The notes: generated from the letters alone by a model not told the origin. Shown: positions 49,296 through 54,685, numbered from the stretch's first letter. The stretch is DNA of 64,000 bases from Opitutales bacterium (GCA_965197745.1 CBDANS010000005.1:384001-448000); one strand, 5' to 3'. A program made the numbers and translations.

Positions 49296-50613
49296 TGGTC
49301 GTGACCACGAAAACTGGGACAGTTGAAAAGTTAGTCTGGGTAACCTAGAAAGGACTCAGACAATGAAAGGCAAAAGATACACGACCGAAGAGAAAATACG
49401 GATGCTGCGGCAGGCGGACAAAGGGAAAACGATCCTGGAAGCATGCCGCGAGAACAACATTAGCGAACAGACTTTCCACCGCTGGAAGCGTGAGTTTGGG
49501 ATGATTGATGTCGACCAGGCCAAGCGGATGAAGGAACTCTTTGAAGGAGAACGCGCGGTTAAAACGGATGCTGGCGGACAAGCTGCTGGGGATAGAGATC
49601 CTGCAGGAGACCCTCGAAAAAAAACTGTAAGCCCTGGGCACAAGCGGCAAGTGGCAGAGAGACTTGTGGCTCGGGGCCAGTGTTCGATGCGAGCGGGGTG
49701 CCGGTACTTTCGGCTGCACCGTTCCACCTATGCGTATAAGGCGAAGCATCCGGATGCTTGGTTAATGAAACTGAAGGCGGCAGTAAGGCGGTTATCACGG
49801 CAATATGCCAGGTGGGGCTATCCGAAGATCACGAAGCTGTTGAAAGACGAAGGCTGGGAGGTGGGTAAACGTCTCGTGCAAGGTCTACGACGCGAACTGG
49901 GCTTGGCGATCCCCCAACGCAAGCCAAGACGTCGGGGCAGGGGTGTTTCCACCGGGCTGCCGACCAAGGCCGAACATCCCGGCCATGTTTGGACCTGGGA
50001 TTTTATCCACGATAAGACGGTCCGCGGTGGCAGTTTAAAAATGTTGACCGTGCTCGATGAGTACACCCGCGAGTGTCGAGTGATCCATGTTGATCGCCAT
50101 ATCAATGCGGAAACGGTGCGCGGTATCATGCAAAAACTGCTTGCCCGTCATGGGCCGCCACAATATATTCGCAGTGACAACGGTTCCGTTCCGAGGAGCG
50201 AAGCGACGACATGCGAAGCCATTCATTGAAAAGGAATTGAGAGCCTGGCTAACTGCGATGAAAATCAAAACCCTCTATATCGAACCAGGAAGCCCTTGGC
50301 AGAACGGATACATCGAATCGTTGCATGCCCGTTTTCGCGAGGAGTGTTTAAACCGTGAACAGCTATGGACTTTGACCGAAGCCCGCGTGGTGATCGAGGA
50401 CTGGCGCTGGCTTTACAATAATGTCCGACCCCACCGCAGCCTCGGCAATATCACCCCACGGTGCTTCGCTGAAGACATTAATACCGAAGGCTTGGGCTCC
50501 ATTCGGGCTACGCCCTCATTGCGCCCAAGCCTTGACTTCCTCTACCAACTTAACTTCAACATTAACCTCTCCAGACTAACTCTCTCGGTGGACCAGTTTA
50601 CGTAACCCGATCA
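49296..50613 (+). mobile_element. IS3-family (IS407-like) insertion sequence, degenerate
   Basis: TG...CA ends with ~44-bp imperfect TIRs (TGGTCGTGACCACGAAAACTGG...GTTAGTCTGG vs TGATCGGGTTACGTAAACTGG...GTTAGTCTGG); orfA HTH; A-run slippery site ~49617-49624; orfB DDE (WTWDF, SDNG, IES, FREECL); no flanking direct repeat seen. Confidence 0.92.
49363..50605 (+). pseudogene. IS3 transposase orfAB with +1 insertion (~49540) and 31-bp insertion (~50188-50218)
   Basis: Removing one T restores ...KELLKENARLKRMLADKLL..EKKL*; removing 31 bp restores SDNGSPFIEKEL. Confidence 0.8.
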
Positions 50614-51307
50614 CCTTAACTAGGAAATTCCGATTTCAAATAAATATTAAACTGAGACACGATCGACCCCTCGATATTCTGATGATCAAAGACGGAACTC
50701 TTATAGGATAGAGGAATCAGTCATGCTACTGGCCGATGACTTAAAGATGGTTTCACAAGGACATTTTTATCCTATCTTATCCTATAAGATCATTCGATTA
50801 TAAGAGACTACACCCCTATTACCTGTATTGAGCTTTGCAGGAAATGCATGTCATAGTCCTTGATTGAGTATTGGTTCAGTCCACTGTATTCTCAATTGCA
50901 ACTGATCGCTTTCGGGATATGGGGATGCCTTTTCTTTCAAAAAACAAGCAGGAAGAAACAGGGGATAGAATGAAGAAAATCCTTAACGACAGACGACAGG
51001 AAAAGCTCTCTTAATGATTGTCAGGAATTATCCTGATATAATTAGTTAAATCGATGCCGGACAAAAAAAATACTGACCTTTAAATTCCAGATATGTCCGA
51101 ATTGGACATTGATGGATAACAGTCTGTTAGCTTAAATATATAATTTTTAAATATAAAGTTAAAGTTTGCTAAAGATTTGCTAATTATCATTCACTTTGCT
51201 GTATTTGACTGCATTTTAGTGCATTTTTAAAATTTCATAACGTACTTAGGAATAACAACTAGAGAAACAAGTTGAAATTGAATGAATGTAGATGCACGGT
51301 TATAACA

Positions 51308-51332
51308 GGTTCGACTCCCGCCACCTCCACCA
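51308..51332 (+). other. 3' fragment of tmRNA (ssrA) or tRNA-Ala; att-like island boundary
   Basis: GGTTCGACTCCCGCCACCTCCACCA: T-loop plus acceptor 3' strand with U70 (Ala identity) and CCA; the 5' half of the T-stem and the rest of the gene are absent. Confidence 0.75.
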
Positions 51333-51333
51333 G

Positions 51334-51739
51334 CCTTCGCCATTGGCGAGGGCTGCCACGTCGACTTGTCAAGCCATAGTTCTCGCGCGTAAGCGAGTTG
51401 GGACGACGGCTGAAGCTCGCTAGAGCGAAGACGAGCTTTACGGTACAAACGTACCATTCTCTACGGCTACGGCTTGGCAAGCCAGCTAATCATTAAAATA
51501 AAAATGATCCCCTTCGCCATTGGCGAGGGCTGCCATGTCGACTTGTCAAGCCATAGTCCTCGCGCGTAAGCGAGTTGGGACGACGGCTGAAGCTCACCGA
51601 GCGAAGACGGGCTTTACGGTACAAACGTACCATTCTCTACGGCTACGGCTTGGCAAGCCAGCTAATCATTAAAATAAAAATGATCCCCTTCGCCATTGGC
51701 GAGGGCTGCCACTTCGACTTGTCAAACCATAGTCCTCGC
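51334..51739. repeat. Tandem repeat, ~2.3 copies of a 176-177-bp palindrome-rich unit
   Basis: Units start at 51334, 51511 and 51687 (CCTTCGCCATTGGCGAGGGCTGCCA...); near-identical copies. Confidence 0.95.
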
Positions 51740-51859
51740 ATTTTAGCAAAAAATAAATATACGTTTATGCGAAGCCTGACCCCTTCTATGGGGAAAATAG
51801 TCAAGCGTGTAAAAATGTCAGTGCATAACTTGTTTAAGTTTCGTTGTTTAAAATAAATT

Positions 51860-52060
51860 CAGGATCGTCTCCTCTGATCGTTCACGAGTCTTAAGACTCG
51901 GATTAACCTGCTATCCGTGCATCACTTAAAGTGAGCACCCTGTGACATTTCCAATAGACGTGTCTAAATCAGAGGAGCAAGCGCTGCCCAATCTTTCAAG
52001 GACGGTATCCTTATTTAAAGAGACACCAGGGGTCAGTACGGGTCATTGCTCCGCTCCAAA
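51860..52060 (-). ncRNA. Predicted bridge/seek RNA in the 3' non-coding end of the IS110 element
   Basis: Two stem-internal-loop-hairpin modules; loop segments match the insertion site (CUGACCCCU, AAAG) and partly the donor junction (AUGUCA, AUAGcAG); RNA ends approximate. Confidence 0.75.
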
Positions 52061-52094
52061 AATGTTTCTTTTTTAGCTTCTCGTTGGCACCTCC

Positions 52095-53183
52095 TTAAGG
52101 GTTGATGGGGTTAAGTTGCAAGCCCAGTGCTTTGGCTTCCAGGCGACCGGTCTGGATCCGCCACCAGTCCACGGCAAACTGCCGGGCCAGGGCCACGATG
52201 ATCTTTTTCTTACGCGCTTTCGTCAGCTTCAAATCGCACAAGTGACGCTCCCACTTTTTAATCGCGTAATAGTCGGGCTGATACACTAACAGCCGCCACA
52301 CGCACTCGATGAGCAAATGGCGTAAGCGACGGTTGCCATGTTTATTGATCGGGCCCTGGAAACGCCGCTGGTTGCTACTGTCTTCACTGGGGCACAATCC
52401 GGTGTAGCTGCCGATCTGGCGGCGGTTTTTGAAACGCTGCCAGTTGCCCACCTCCCGCTCTAAGAGAATGCAGGTCATTTTGCCCAAACCAGTGGGCAGT
52501 CCTTCGGGAGCCTCGGCCTCAATCTTCTTGGTTAGATTCTTGAGCTCCTCATCGATCGCGAGGATGATCCTCCTTAACGGTTCCAACAGCTCACACACCG
52601 TGGGCGGCAGCTGCGCTCGGCAGCGCTCCCACTTGCGGCGGTTCCACCACGGCCCCCGCAGTCGTCCCCCATAATACATGACCTGGCTTCTACCCTGTGC
52701 GGCCAGCCGCTGGCGCTGTCTCATCATACTCTGGCGTTGTCGACTCACACTGCGTTTGCGCTCCTGCTCTTCGCTCGGGACGTAGACCACACTGAAGGCT
52801 TCACGGTTACCGTTCACATAGCGGTCCAAACAAAGGGCCATTTGATGGGCATCGCGTTTGTCCGTTTTGACTTTTTTCCCATACTCGTCCCAGTCGCGCG
52901 GGCGTATCACGTAGTTCTGCACCCCCAGTTGTTTTAACTGTCGATGCAGGCTGTAGCCAAACGGTCCGGCTTCATAGCAGCTGACTATCTGCTGGGCTTC
53001 CTTTACTACTTGCTGTTCTATCCATTTTAGAAACGAAGGGGGACTGAATCGGCGGGGCGCTTTCGGGGTGCCACCGTCTACCATCATAACCACTACATAG
53101 CGGTCGATATGGACATCAATCCCAAGCTTGATTACTTCGGCTTTTGTTTTAACTTCTTTTGTTGATGACGTGGGTTTTTTCAT
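52095..53183 (-). CDS. IS110-family transposase/recombinase (362 aa)
   Basis: RuvC-like DEDD: GIDVH, CYEAGPFG, KTDKRDA; Tnp domain YTGLCPSEDSS (catalytic Ser), INKHGNRRLR; ATG 53183 lies inside the element end, whereas the 53408 start runs through flanking repeats. Confidence 0.93.
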   Translation of the reverse strand: MKKPTSSTKEVKTKAEVIKLGIDVHIDRYVVVMMVDGGTPKAPRRFSPPSFLKWIEQQVVKEAQQIVSCYEAGPFGYSLHRQLKQLGVQNYVIRPRDWDEYGKKVKTDKRDAHQMALCLDRYVNGNREAFSVVYVPSEEQERKRSVSRQRQSMMRQRQRLAAQGRSQVMYYGGRLRGPWWNRRKWERCRAQLPPTVCELLEPLRRIILAIDEELKNLTKKIEAEAPEGLPTGLGKMTCILLEREVGNWQRFKNRRQIGSYTGLCPSEDSSNQRRFQGPINKHGNRRLRHLLIECVWRLLVYQPDYYAIKKWERHLCDLKLTKARKKKIIVALARQFAVDWWRIQTGRLEAKALGLQLNPINP

Positions 53184-53262
53184 AGGGTTGTCAGGGTTTG
53201 TGATTCGCTCACCCCTGACAATCCCCATGTCATCTTTTGACTCTTTCTGGTCACTAGTCTTT

Positions 53263-53368
53263 TCCCGACACCCGAACCCCGAACCCTGTCCCGAGTCCCG
53301 CGGCCACGGGACGACATCTTCCACCCTGACACCCGAACCCTGAACCGTGAACACTGAACGGTGACACC
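53263..53368. repeat. Degenerate heptamer tandem repeats (CCCGAAC/CCTGAAC type)
   Basis: cccgaca cccgaac cccgaac ... cccgaac cctgaac cgtgaac actgaac. Confidence 0.8.
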
Positions 53369-53422
53369 TACAAGCTTGACTCCATTCTTCTTTGCAGTTC
53401 CATAGCAAAAAAGGTCTAATAA

Positions 53423-54685
53423 GTGAACCTCTCTGAACTGCAAGCTAAAGCTACACGACTGGAACGTGAGCTGCAGGAGACCCGCAATCTCCTGGCATTG
53501 ACCATCGACCCCGAGGCCGTCACTGCAGACCTCGCCCGCACTCGAGCCTATGCATTCGATTCCGTAAAGATGCCCGTTGAGGATGTGGTAGCGGGGTGTG
53601 CCGATTCACTCGATCGATACGGTTTCTGTGTCGTCGACCATGTGATACCATCCGACGAGGTGGACGCCATTCGCGAGGAAGTTATGGCGGCAGATGATAC
53701 TGCCAACCGCAATATTCAGGGCATTAAAGACCTGTTTAATCAAGAGGGGGCGAACGCCGAGGAATTACTTAGCGGCAAGGCCGCGGCAAACAACGTGGAG
53801 TTAAGGCGAGTGCGCAGGGTCGGGCATCCTCCCAAACCTCCCAACAACATTATCTGGATGCCCCAGTACGCCCGGCATCTCGCCAATCCGGTAATTACCG
53901 CTGTGGCACGCCACGTTCTCGATGACCATCTTCGAATCGCGTCGTTGCATAACCGTTGCATAAAAAGCGACGATGCATTTATCGAGAATAATGGAGCAGA
54001 CGAATTCAAGAAAATGCGAGGTTCGGATAAGCGCGGCTGGCACACAGACTGGCCCCACGACCTTTCAGCTTACGGCAATAAAGACCCCAATAATAATGTC
54101 GGTTGCATCCGCCAGCCCTGCCCCGACGTAACCATGTGCCTGGTGATGATCTGGTATCTAACCGATGTCGATGAAAATTCGGGGGGCACGTGGATCGTGC
54201 CGGGTTCGCATAAGGACAAGCGGAATCCACGGGGTCCGAACGATGGTATTTCGGTTACCGCGCCCATTCCCGGCGATATGCAAGTAACCGCGCCAGCGGG
54301 GTCTGTCTATATCCAGGATTCGCGTTGCTGGCACGCGACTGCCAGGCACAATCCAAGTGGTCGGGAGAGGGTTGCGGTGGTGAATCGCTGGTGCCCCTGG
54401 TGGTTCTCCGTCGACGACTTCGCCCCAGGAGACAAGTACAATGTCTACCACTTATGCCGTCCTCTTAACCATGCAGAGTATCTGGCCCTGCCCCCTGATC
54501 TGCAACCGTTGATGCGGCATCTCTGTCCCGATGAACGTGACACCTTGCAACAGCCGGTGCTCGATCGGGCTGAAGCAGCTCATGCACGCACGCTGTGGGG
54601 ATTTCAGCAAGAGGAGGAAAATCCAGAATCCATGCAACATATCAACGCGCATATCAAAGTGCCGGTGGTGCCTTTTAAGTGTTAG
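53423..54685 (+). CDS. Phytanoyl-CoA dioxygenase (PhyH)-family Fe(II)/2-oxoglutarate oxygenase
   Basis: LDRYGFCVVDHVI, WHTD (HxD), YLTDVDENSGGTWIVPGSH, AGSVYIQDSRCWH, R. Confidence 0.88.
   Translation: MNLSELQAKATRLERELQETRNLLALTIDPEAVTADLARTRAYAFDSVKMPVEDVVAGCADSLDRYGFCVVDHVIPSDEVDAIREEVMAADDTANRNIQGIKDLFNQEGANAEELLSGKAAANNVELRRVRRVGHPPKPPNNIIWMPQYARHLANPVITAVARHVLDDHLRIASLHNRCIKSDDAFIENNGADEFKKMRGSDKRGWHTDWPHDLSAYGNKDPNNNVGCIRQPCPDVTMCLVMIWYLTDVDENSGGTWIVPGSHKDKRNPRGPNDGISVTAPIPGDMQVTAPAGSVYIQDSRCWHATARHNPSGRERVAVVNRWCPWWFSVDDFAPGDKYNVYHLCRPLNHAEYLALPPDLQPLMRHLCPDERDTLQQPVLDRAEAAHARTLWGFQQEEENPESMQHINAHIKVPVVPFKC

What the first reader, a model, noticed from the sequence alone, without database searches (positions are those of the whole stretch)
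51869..51977. Second RNA module matches the predicted excised-circle (donor) junction
Seen: excision at the CT cores would give the junction CCCCAT-GTCAT-CT-TCT-ATGGGG, with the IRs 10 nt apart as described for IS1111 circles. A second module is closed by CTCCTCTGAT/ATCAGAGGAG (51869-78 with 51968-77) and has an inner hairpin GTGCATCAC-TTAAA-GTGAGCAC (51917-38). It carries AUGUCA (51943-48), matching the left donor ATGTCA, and AUAGcAG (51908-14), a 6/7 match to the reverse complement of core plus right donor (AUAGAAG). Both 9-nt left-guide positions are followed by GGUG, so the two loops are built in parallel. A perfect 16-bp palindrome CGAGTCTTAAGACTCG (51885-900) branches from this module. 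Caveat: the left donor guide reads AUGUCAcag, so it does not pair across the core. This could be a subfamily-specific donor-recognition mode or a mutation. The two closing stems overlap at GGAG (51974-77), allowing alternative folds.
Basis: partly seen in the sequence, partly recalled or inferred. Interest (0 to 1): 0.7.

Follow-up and report, generated by a model that had tools for sequence, protein, structure and literature searches.

The report
Donor-binding half of a transposon's guide RNA
This stretch encodes the second half of the guide ("bridge" or "seek") RNA of an IS1111-type jumping gene, the half that reads the element's own joined ends; it is a well-supported but ordinary new example of a kind of system described in 2024.

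Summary
The sequence features are all present at the stated coordinates. The module lies on the minus strand, in the 310-nt non-coding region 3' of an IS110/IS1111-family DEDD transposase gene (53183-52095).

Uninterrupted copies of the target hairpin in the same genome fix the element ends.

Alignment of 62 relatives with the window supports the three helices by covariation: 90.7% of cells are paired against 35-45% in the slid controls, and 17 of 26 pairs change on both sides.

The right guide AUAGCAG equals right end plus core in 61 of 62 loci. A C-to-G change occurs on both partners in L097 and in the L092/L102 clade, which lie apart on the tree. The window is the single mismatch, and the fault is in the DNA end: another public assembly of the same insertion carries the consensus base.

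The left guide AUGUCA is weaker, with 3-7 of 7 positions complementary and a few compensatory changes. None of the 78 parsed relatives pairs across the core, so this is a trait of the subfamily, not a mutation.

Verdict: a real donor-binding loop and a new member of a known kind. No circle junction or RNA was observed directly.

The parts
51785..53235 (-). Whole IS1111-type insertion sequence, 1451 bp, counting one copy of the core. In element orientation the left end is AG-ATGAC-ATGGGG and the right end is CCCCAT-AGA, followed by the core AG at 51784-83.
   Evidence: Five uninterrupted copies of the target hairpin in the same genome read ...GCCTGACCCCTTTTG. The terminal extensions are 7 bp and 3 bp, as published for IS1111.
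52095..53183 (-). DEDD transposase gene, 362 aa.
   Evidence: Pfam PF01548 (E 2.6e-9) and PF02371 (E 7e-16). It is 56-65% identical to 10 genome loci and 52-64% identical to 80 metagenome loci.
51974..52057 (-). First RNA module, the target-binding loop. The left target guide CUGACCCCU is at 52036-52028. The right target guide plus handshake, UUGAAAG-AU, is at 51999-51991.
   Evidence: The 9-mer equals the reverse complement of core plus 7 flank bases at 9/9 positions in 29 of 54 loci and at 8/9 or better in 38 of 54. The guide changes together with the flank in, for example, L020 and L031.
51869..51977 (-). Second RNA module, the donor-binding three-way junction. This is the finding.
   Evidence: Three helices are supported on 63 sequences: 90.7% of cells are paired against 35-45% in slid controls, 17 of 26 pairs change on both sides, and 0 of 500 shuffles reach the observed values. 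RNAalifold finds P1 (9 of its 10 pairs), P2 (7 of its 8) and three pairs of P3 on its own.
51968..51977 (-). P1 5' strand, CUCCUCUGAU. It pairs with 51869-51878 (AUCAGAGGAG).
   Evidence: 10 pairs, 97.7% of cells paired, 4 pairs with changes on both sides.
51940..51948 (-). Left donor guide position. AUGUCAC (51948-51942) is complementary to the left end ATGACAT at 6 of 7 positions. It is followed by AG (51941-40) at the core positions, which cannot pair with the core.
   Evidence: The homologous 7-mer is complementary to each locus's own left end at 3-7 of 7 positions. Examples: L074 7/7, L092 6/7, the crown clade 4-6/7. None of 78 loci has CU at the core positions.
51917..51938 (-). P2 inner hairpin, GUGCUCAC-UUUAA-GUGAUGCAC, with one bulged U.
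   Evidence: 8 pairs, 6 with changes on both sides. For example, columns 42/59 are A-U in 36 sequences and G-C in 27.
51907..51914 (-). Right donor guide AUAGCAG (51914-51908) plus a handshake-like G (51907).
   Evidence: The guide equals right end plus core in 61 of 62 loci. C-to-G occurs on both partners in L097 and in L092/L102. The next base equals the first flank base in 58 of 62 loci, and is C with C in L079, L092 and L102.
51882..51902 (-). P3 hairpin. It comprises the 16-nt palindrome CGAGUCUUAAGACUCG (51900-51885) plus two outer pairs and one bulge.
   Evidence: 8 pairs, 7 with changes on both sides, 83.1% of cells paired. The structure is conserved in relatives but the palindromic sequence is not.
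51785..51785 (-). Last base of the right end. It is A in element orientation (T on the + strand), where 58 relatives have C and 3 have G. It is the only mismatch to the right donor guide.
   Evidence: One contig of run X4 covers the same insertion (51714-53142) and reads G on the + strand here, which is C in element orientation, at depth 10.8 of 10.8.
51799..51804 (-). TTGACT, a -35-like hexamer in the right end. In the predicted circle it lies 17 nt upstream of TGACAT, which is left-end bases 2-7.
   Evidence: Counted. TTGAC is conserved in the right ends listed, with 16-17 nt to TAACAT. A junction promoter is published for the IS1111 member ISEc11. The function here is inferred, not tested.
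53222..53228 (-). Left subterminal inverted repeat, ATGGGGA in element orientation. Its partner is at 51788-51794.
   Evidence: Read directly from the sequence. One subclade of relatives has an 11-bp repeat, ATGGGGTGGTC.

Best explanation
Region 51869-51977 (minus strand) encodes the donor-binding loop of the bridge (long seek) RNA of an IS1111-group insertion sequence. The RNA is co-oriented with the transposase gene and lies 3' of it. It has two modules.

**First module (52057-51974).** It reads the target, a terminator-like hairpin repeat.

**Second module.** It is a three-way junction (P1, P2, P3) whose two long single-stranded joints read the joined ends of the excised circle.
- The joint 3' of P2 (AUAGCAG) has the sequence of right end plus core, so it pairs with the complementary strand.
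- The following G can pair with the first base of the target flank after strand exchange, like an IS621 handshake guide.
- The joint 5' of P2 (AUGUCAC) pairs with the other strand of the left end (ATGACAT) but stops before the core.

Oriented by the CT core, the order is left guide, stem-loop, right guide, handshake, as in IS621. The transposase gene points the other way relative to that core.

**Shown here:** the structure, the covariation of the right guide and of the handshake base, the element ends, and the target.

**Inferred:** that the RNA is made, that it binds the transposase, and that the left guide pairs.

The window's copy has a point change in its right end next to the cleavage site. 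This probably weakens donor recognition.
For: 1. **Transposase family.** PF01548 plus PF02371. The long non-coding region lies downstream of the gene, as in IS1111 elements (PMC11187229 section 6; PMC11208160 passages).
2. **Ends.** They are fixed by 5 uninterrupted target copies and fit the 7-bp and 3-bp extension rule.
3. **Helices.** On the window plus 62 relatives, 90.7% of cells are paired against 35-45% in slid controls. 17 of 26 pairs change on both sides, and 0 of 500 shuffles reach the observed values. Window MFE z = -4.65.
4. **Right guide.** It is identical to right end plus core in 61 of 62 loci. C-to-G occurs on both partners in L097 (inside the crown clade, whose neighbours L079 and L100 keep C) and in the L092/L102 clade, so two separate events.
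5. **Handshake position.** It equals the first flank base in 58 of 62 loci. It is C with C in L079 and in L092/L102. The two G-versus-A cases allow G-T wobble.
6. **Left guide.** It is complementary to the local left end at 7/7 positions in L074, and at 6/7 in the window, L086, L103, L092, L110 and L112-115.
7. **Left guide, compensatory changes.** Left-end base 3 G/A goes with RNA C/U, base 2 T-to-A with RNA A-to-U (L101), and base 4 A-to-C with RNA U-to-G (L111).
8. **Same insertion elsewhere.** In run X4 it has the consensus right end that matches the guide 7/7.
9. **First module.** It matches the target, which leaves the second for the donor.
Against: - No RNA run holds the stretch, and no circle junction was seen. 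Expression and excision are therefore unshown.
- Both ends and both guides are nearly invariant in the crown clade, so most of the 61 of 62 agreement is shared ancestry. Independent events are few: two for the right guide, two for the handshake base, and about three single-pair events for the left guide.
- The left guide is weak in most relatives, at 4-6 of 7 positions with a fixed A-A mismatch. It is 3/7 in L068 and 4/7 in L102.
- Handshake exceptions: L029 and L047 have G against flank C.
- The one natural right-end/left-end junction among relatives (L048, a circular-looking contig) has the repeats 7 nt apart, not 10.
- For four IS1111 elements (ISEc11, ISPa11, ISKpn4, ISPst6), the RNA that predominantly co-purifies with the transposase is 82-96 nt, about one module. 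The role of the long form is stated to be unknown.
- RNAalifold also proposes UGG/CCA and AAC/GUU pairings that would occupy part of the joints.
Confidence: 0.8

Rival explanations
1. The module is a structural or processing part of the long precursor RNA: a scaffold for the transposase, a 3' stability element or a processing signal. It does not read DNA. The element ends would be recognised by the protein through the subterminal inverted repeats.
For: - For four IS1111 elements (ISEc11, ISPa11, ISKpn4, ISPst6), the predominant co-purified seekRNA is 82-96 nt, about one module. The authors say the role of the long form is not established and that end recognition may differ from IS110 (PMC11187229).
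- Left-guide complementarity is only 4-6 of 7 positions in the crown clade, and none of 78 loci pairs at the core.
- The guide-like joints are almost invariant, as a protein-binding motif would be.
Against: An 8-nt stretch of the RNA changes together with the right end in two lineages and with the flank base in two lineages. A protein-binding motif would not track DNA 150-300 nt away. The left-guide 5-mer also changes with the left end (GAUAU/ATAAC, GUCAU/ATGAC, GCAA/ATGCC).
Confidence: 0.1
2. The module reads the integrated right-end/flank junction, for excision only, and not the circle junction. AUAGCAGG matches the integrated junction ATAGC-AG-G at 8 of 8 positions but the predicted circle junction ATAGC-AG-A at only 7 of 8.
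For: - The eighth base follows the flank (58 of 62 loci; C with C in three), not the left end, whose first base is A in nearly all.
- Siddiquee et al. found that flanking target sequence is needed for circle formation.
Against: In IS621 the base after the right guide is a handshake guide. It is meant to pair with the non-cognate DNA after strand exchange, and the same loops serve insertion and excision (PMC11208158 section 11; PMC13626964 abstract). The observation therefore does not separate the two readings. The left-guide position matches the left end, which is not next to the right end in the integrated state.
Confidence: 0.07
3. The guide matches are chance in a structured 3' untranslated region or terminator of the transposase mRNA.
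For: In the window alone, a 6-nt match and a 6/7 match are individually common in shuffles, at 8% and 19%.
Against: Both matches in the right order occur in 0.9% of shuffles. The same positions match in 61 of 62 relatives and covary. The module is conserved down to 40% transposase identity.
Confidence: 0.02

Closest known systems
Donor-binding loop of the IS621 bridge RNA (IS110 group; Durrant et al. 2024, PMC11208160; Hiraizumi et al. 2024, PMC11208158)
   Same: - It is the second of two modules.
- The order, oriented by the CT core, is left guide, stem-loop, right guide, handshake base.
- The left guide has the sense of the top strand, and the right guide is complementary to core plus right donor.
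- The left donor guide is shorter than the left target guide. In IS621 it is 8 nt against 9 nt.
- One donor guide pairs imperfectly. In IS621 that is the right one, which pairs discontiguously.
   Different: - Here the RNA lies 3' of the transposase gene, and the gene points opposite to the CT-core orientation.
- The loop is a three-way junction with an extra hairpin (P3), not a simple internal loop.
- The left donor guide does not touch the core at all in this subfamily.
- The ends carry subterminal inverted repeats with 7-bp and 3-bp extensions.
Long seekRNA of IS1111-family elements ISEc11, ISPa11, ISKpn4 and ISPst6 (Siddiquee et al. 2024, PMC11187229)
   Same: - The non-coding region lies downstream of the gene.
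- In element orientation, the top-strand target match lies 5' of the bottom-strand match.
- The terminal extensions are 7 bp and 3 bp.
- The -35 and -10 elements are split between the two ends.
- A first module of about 84 nt compares with their 82-96-nt short form, and two modules of about 190 nt compare with their 148-172-nt long form.
   Different: That work assigns no function to the 3' part of the long RNA. Here that part shows covariation with the element's own ends. The transposase here has SS where their motif has SG/TG. The inverted repeat is 7 bp in the window, against the usual 11-13 bp.
Predicted bridge RNAs of IS1111-group elements ISCARN28, ISAzs32 and ISPa11 (Durrant et al. [quoted passage not shown]
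   Same: The bridge RNA lies in the right end, and the donor-binding nucleotides sit in a multi-loop structure.
   Different: The figures are not held, so the guide layout could not be compared base by base. This clade, found in Verrucomicrobia-type and other soil or sediment assemblies, matches no Rfam family.

Membership tests
IS1111 group of the IS110 family | DEDD (RuvC-like) transposase with a C-terminal PF02371 domain | tested here: met
   PF01548 E 2.6e-9 and PF02371 E 7e-16, both above the curated cut-offs.
IS1111 group of the IS110 family | The longer non-coding region lies downstream of the transposase gene | tested here: met
   310 nt lie 3' of the stop codon (52094-51785), against 52 nt 5' of the start (53235-53184). 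The criterion is from PMC11187229 section 6.
IS1111 group of the IS110 family | Subterminal inverted repeats with terminal extensions of 7 bp (left) and 3 bp (right) | tested here: met
   The extensions are AGATGAC before ATGGGG and AGA after CCCCAT. The ends are fixed by uninterrupted targets, and the rule is quoted.
IS1111 group of the IS110 family | Inverted repeat usually 11-13 bp | tested here: inconclusive
   Only 7 bp (ATGGGGA) match in the window. One subclade of relatives has 11 bp (ATGGGGTGGTC).
IS1111 group of the IS110 family | GL-P----S(T)G motif in the C-terminal domain | tested here: inconclusive
   The window has GLCPSEDSS and the consensus of 8 relatives has GLCPREDSS. The final pair is SS, not SG/TG/TA (motif).
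IS1111 group of the IS110 family | Site-specific insertion without target duplication | tested here: met
   The flanks rejoin to ...GCCTGACCC-CT-TTTG, the form of 5 uninterrupted hairpin copies. The same target half-sites recur in relatives.
Bridge RNA / seekRNA, donor-binding loop | Conserved structured RNA module next to the target-binding module, on the transposase strand | tested here: met
Bridge RNA / seekRNA, donor-binding loop | A guide that matches core plus one donor flank and covaries with it | tested here: met
   61 of 62 loci are identical, with two separate C-to-G double changes.
Bridge RNA / seekRNA, donor-binding loop | A second guide that matches the other donor flank on the other strand, including the core | tested here: inconclusive
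   Complementarity is 3-7 of 7 positions, with three single-pair compensatory changes. The core is not paired in 78 of 78 parsed loci. CU is present in the distant clade L105, L107-109 and L111.
Bridge RNA / seekRNA, donor-binding loop | Handshake base after the right guide, matching the non-cognate DNA | tested here: met
   58 of 62 loci. C goes with C in L079 and in L092/L102. Exceptions are L029, L047, L082 and L084.
Bridge RNA / seekRNA, donor-binding loop | The RNA is expressed and bound by the transposase, and is needed for recombination | not testable with these tools
   No RNA holder is listed, and only contigs were available.
Any Rfam family | Match to a curated covariance model | tested here: not met
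   0 matches at E up to 1 in window 50000-54000.

The most novel reading that the evidence does not exclude
In this IS1111 clade, donor recognition is asymmetric. The RNA reads only the right end, the core and a handshake base with full fidelity. The left-end guide has decayed to a 3-5-bp contact that never reaches the core and, in the crown clade, carries a fixed A-A mismatch. The left end would then be held mainly by the protein on the inverted repeat, and its sequence would be constrained as the -10 box of the junction promoter. A related possibility: the two AG dinucleotides in the right end (AT-AG-C-AG) allow excision in two registers. This would explain the 7-nt junction of L048 and the extra CAG at the right-end junctions of L029 and L047.
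Probability: 0.2. Interest if true: 0.5.

Novelty: new member of a known kind. Interest (0 to 1): 0.3.

Why it matters
Bridge/seek RNAs are being developed as programmable recombinases. Almost all mechanistic work is on IS621 of the IS110 group. For the IS1111 group, the published experiments assign a function only to the target-reading part of the RNA.

This locus and about 100 relatives give comparative evidence that the 3' part of an IS1111 long RNA reads the element's own right end and carries a handshake-like base. They also show that the left-end guide can be short and stop before the core. That helps in annotating such elements and in choosing which positions to reprogram.

For this genome, the finding is an ordinary single-copy insertion sequence whose right end has drifted away from its guide.

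Tried and rejected
- **Rfam.** The scan of 50000-54000 at E up to 1 gave no family.
- **ARAGORN.** No tRNA or tmRNA gene was found, despite a tmRNA-like 3' end at 51290-51323.
- **Other copies in the same genome.** None is complete. There is one transposase remnant on another contig and copies of the target hairpin.
- **Alternative end model.** I considered a right end stopping at CCCCAT-AG, with CAG/AAG belonging to the target. I rejected it for four reasons.
  - 5 of 5 uninterrupted targets lack the extra 3 nt.
  - The base before the core follows the donor guide, not the target guide (L097, L092, L102).
  - In L079 and L082 the target guide does not pair with it.
  - The 10-nt junction gives 16-17-nt promoter spacing.
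- **Same-sense reading of the left-guide position.** GAUA could match AGATAAC. This fits some crown members (L055, L061) but fails in the window, L074, L086 and L103.
- **RNAalifold's extra pairings** (columns 25-27/77-79 and 29-31/71-73). There is almost no change on both sides (one sequence, at 29/73). They are broken when column 79 changes to C (5 sequences) and when column 71 changes to C (L079).
- **Sequencing runs.** No RNA holder is listed. The contigs laid showed no right-end/left-end joint and no empty site. The loose end at 51782 belongs to another copy of the hairpin repeat, with 5 differences in 89 nt.
- **Earlier notes of this scan.** None for this place.
- **** failed because L024's match contains stop codons. 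L024 was left out of the protein alignment.

Full report
**What is there.**
- The region lies on the minus strand, downstream of a 362-aa open reading frame (53183-52095). This frame carries the two Pfam domains of IS110/IS1111 transposases, PF01548 and PF02371.
- Rfam has no family for the region.

**Element ends and target.**
- The genome holds one full copy, plus a remnant of a related transposase gene on another contig.
- The DNA flanking the element matches a repeated hairpin found elsewhere in the genome: AAAGGGGTCAGGCTTCGCA, a loop, then TGCGAAGCCTGACCCCTTTTG. Five uninterrupted copies were read.
- Joining the window's flanks gives ...GCCTGACCC-CT-TTTG. The core is therefore CT at 51783-84 and 53234-35.
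- In element orientation the left end is AG-ATGAC-ATGGGG and the right end is CCCCAT-AGA-(AG). These are the 7-bp and 3-bp extensions that Siddiquee et al. give for IS1111 elements (PMC11187229, passage).
- In the predicted circle, a -35-like TTGACT in the right end lies 17 nt from TGACAT in the left end. A junction promoter of this kind is reported for ISEc11. Here it is an inference.

**Relatives.**
- A scan of species genomes gave 10 loci at 56-65% protein identity.
- A metagenome scan gave 570 relatives, of which the best 80 were kept.
- A search of 401 genomes of the phylum found matches in 8, including the window's own genome, and gave 11 more loci at 40-54% identity.
- From the window and L015-L104 (91 loci), 71 non-coding RNAs were extracted.
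- For the second module I aligned the window and 62 loci. I left out six exact duplicates (L030, L035, L058, L061, L087, L095) and two loci cut by contig ends (L070, L038).

**Structure (unless stated).**

| Helix | Content | Pairs | Cells paired | Pairs changed on both sides |
|---|---|---|---|---|
| P1 | closing stem | 10 | 97.7% | 4 |
| P2 | inner hairpin | 8 | 89.7% | 6 |
| P3 | the window's palindrome plus two outer pairs | 8 | 83.1% | 7 |

- Overall, 90.7% of cells pair, against 35-45% when partners are slid by 1-3 columns.
- 0 of 500 shuffles reach the observed values.
- RNAalifold recovers 9 of P1's 10 pairs, 7 of P2's 8 and three pairs of P3 on its own.
- The window module folds with z = -4.65.
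- The module is thus a three-way junction. Durrant et al. say that in many IS1111 orthologues the donor-binding nucleotides sit in a multi-loop (PMC11208160, passage).

**First module.** Its 9-mer CUGACCCCU equals the reverse complement of core plus flank at 9/9 positions in 29 of 54 loci, and at 8/9 or better in 38 of 54. Some low values are alignment offsets. Guides change with their flanks in, for example, L020 and L031. The first module therefore reads the target, and the second is left for the donor.

**Right donor guide.**
- Of 91 loci, 78 had parsable donor segments and 62 of these also had a right end.
- The RNA 7-mer equals right end plus core in 61 of 62: 58 with ATAGC-AG and 3 with ATAGG-AG.
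- On a transposase tree of 89 rows (L023 and L024 left out; quick search, midpoint root), L097 sits inside the crown clade beside L079 and L100, which keep C. L092 and L102 form a separate basal clade. The double change therefore arose twice.
- The base after the guide equals the first flank base in 58 of 62 loci, and is C with C in L079, L092 and L102.
- In L082 and L084 the RNA has G against a flank A, which allows G-T wobble. L029 and L047 are exceptions and carry an extra CAG at the junction.
- This behaviour matches the handshake guides of IS621 (PMC11208158 section 11).

**The window's mismatch.**
- The window is the one locus where guide and end differ: AUAGCAG against ATAGA-AG.
- In contigs of four public runs laid on the stretch, X1 and X3 are identical to the window.
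- The X4 contig covers the same insertion (51714-53142). It reads G at 51785 on the + strand, which restores ATAGC-AG.
- The X4 copy also has one extra base after 52618, which breaks the transposase frame.
- Both observations suit an old, inherited insertion that is decaying. This last point is an inference.

**Left donor guide.** The 7-mer just 5' of P2 was compared with each locus's own left end.

| Loci | Left end | RNA 7-mer and next two bases | Complementary positions |
|---|---|---|---|
| Window | ATGACAT | AUGUCAC-AG | 6/7 |
| L074 | ATGACAT | AUGUCAU-AG | 7/7 |
| L086, L110 | ATGACAT | AAGUCAU | 6/7 |
| L103, L106, L112-115 | ATGACAT | AGGUCAU | 6/7 |
| L092 | TAGACAT | AUGUCCA | 6/7 |
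| L101 | AAGACAT | ACAUCUU | 5/7 |
| L102 | AAGACAT | AAGUCCA | 4/7 |
| L068 | ATCACAT | ACGGUAG | 3/7 |
| Crown clade (55 loci) | ATAACAT (TTAACAT in L059) | ACGAUAU and variants | 4-6/7, fixed A-A mismatch |
| L105, L107, L108, L109 | ATGACAT | AGAUCAA-CU (AGAUCAC-CU in L109) | 4/7 plus the core |
| L111 | ATGCCAT | ACAGCAA-CU | 4/7 plus the core |

- Three single-pair changes are compensated. Left-end base 3 G/A goes with RNA C/U, base 2 T-to-A goes with A-to-U in L101, and base 4 A-to-C goes with U-to-G in L111.
- The tree shows that the G/A change happened once, at the base of the crown. Independent support is therefore thin.
- The two positions where a core complement would sit are AG (34 loci), AA (18), GA (17) or other non-CU pairs in all 78 parsed loci. 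Only the distant clade L105, L107-109 and L111 has CU.
- In IS621 the left donor guide is also shorter than the left target guide, at 8 nt against 9 nt, and one donor guide pairs discontiguously.

**Orientation.** Oriented by the CT core, the RNA order is the IS621 order, but the transposase gene lies on the other strand. This is the reversal noted by Siddiquee et al. (abstract and section 9).

**Against the reading.**
- No run on record as RNA holds the stretch, and only contigs could be laid. Neither the RNA nor a circle was seen.
- For four IS1111 elements (ISEc11, ISPa11, ISKpn4, ISPst6), the predominant co-purified RNA is 82-96 nt, and the role of the long form is stated as open.
- One relative, L048, is a circular-looking contig with a 77-nt terminal overlap. 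Its right-end/left-end junction reads CCCCATAG-ATAACATGGGG, 3 nt shorter than predicted. That junction would give a 14-nt promoter spacer and does not fit the donor guide. It remains unexplained.

**Comparison and novelty.**
- Three searches of the held papers found no experimental study of an IS1111 donor-binding loop. Durrant et al. predict them. Their Fig. 6d, Extended Data Fig. 10c and supplementary tables were not visible to me and may already show this layout.
- The finding is a new member of a known kind.
- The useful extras are the covariation evidence for the right guide and the handshake base in an IS1111 clade, and the short left guide that avoids the core.

Noticed in passing
L048 (whole locus, 1613 nt; junction near 71-110): This circular-looking metagenome contig has a 77-nt terminal overlap and a unit of about 1536 bp. 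Its right-end/left-end junction reads CCCCATAG-ATAACATGGGG, with 7 nt between the repeats instead of the predicted 10. This would fit recombination at the inner AG of AT-AG-C-AG.
   Followed up: partly
L029 and L047, right-end junctions: The right-end junctions read ATAGC-AG-CAG-GG..., with an extra CAG between the core and the usual target half-site. This could be a footprint of the shorter excision register seen in L048.
   Followed up: no
window 52618-52634 (in run X4): The X4 contig of the same insertion has one extra G after 52618 and T>G at 52634, a frameshift in the transposase gene. Its right end is the consensus. The window has the reverse combination: an intact gene and a changed right end.
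   Followed up: partly
L039 (about 60-110 nt after the transposase stop): A second copy of the element, inverted, appears to be inserted into the DNA that encodes the left target guide of the first copy (...CACTGACCC-T-GCTATGGGG...). The guide-coding DNA mimics half of the target.
   Followed up: no
L018, L060, L078: In these relatives the bridge RNA gene is cut off or interrupted by unrelated sequence. In L018 and L078 the break is inside the first module. In L060 it comes right after the left donor guide.
   Followed up: no
L019, L021, L022, L024, L098 (between transposase stop and RNA); L016 and L068 (after the RNA): A conserved insert of about 230 nt (GATGAGTTTTTCGCTTTGG ... CTCCTGCAGAGCCC) sits at different places in several relatives. 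It may be a small mobile or structured element of its own.
   Followed up: no
window 51290-51740: The sequence GGTTCGACTCCCGCCACCTCCACCA resembles a tmRNA 3' end. It is followed by about three tandem copies of a ~185-bp unit that run into the left arm of the target hairpin. ARAGORN and Rfam call no gene. Several contigs in the public runs end or branch here.
   Followed up: partly
window 49363-50605: Two overlapping reading frames (288 aa and 172 aa) look like the two parts of another transposase (my impression of IS3-like from recall; no family search was run), just upstream of the repeats.
   Followed up: no
G000 contig 6, 564463-564972 (L014): This is a remnant of a related transposase gene covering residues 21-191 at 80% identity. 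No left end was visible upstream, and unrelated sequence follows.
   Followed up: partly
alignment A2, columns 25-31 with 71-79: RNAalifold pairs the conserved UUGGAAAC of the 5' joint with GGUUAAGCCA of the 3' joint. That would turn the junction into an IS621-like internal loop. There is almost no covariation (a single two-sided change, at columns 29/73), and the pairs break in L079 and L080-88. A tertiary or alternative contact is not excluded.
   Followed up: partly
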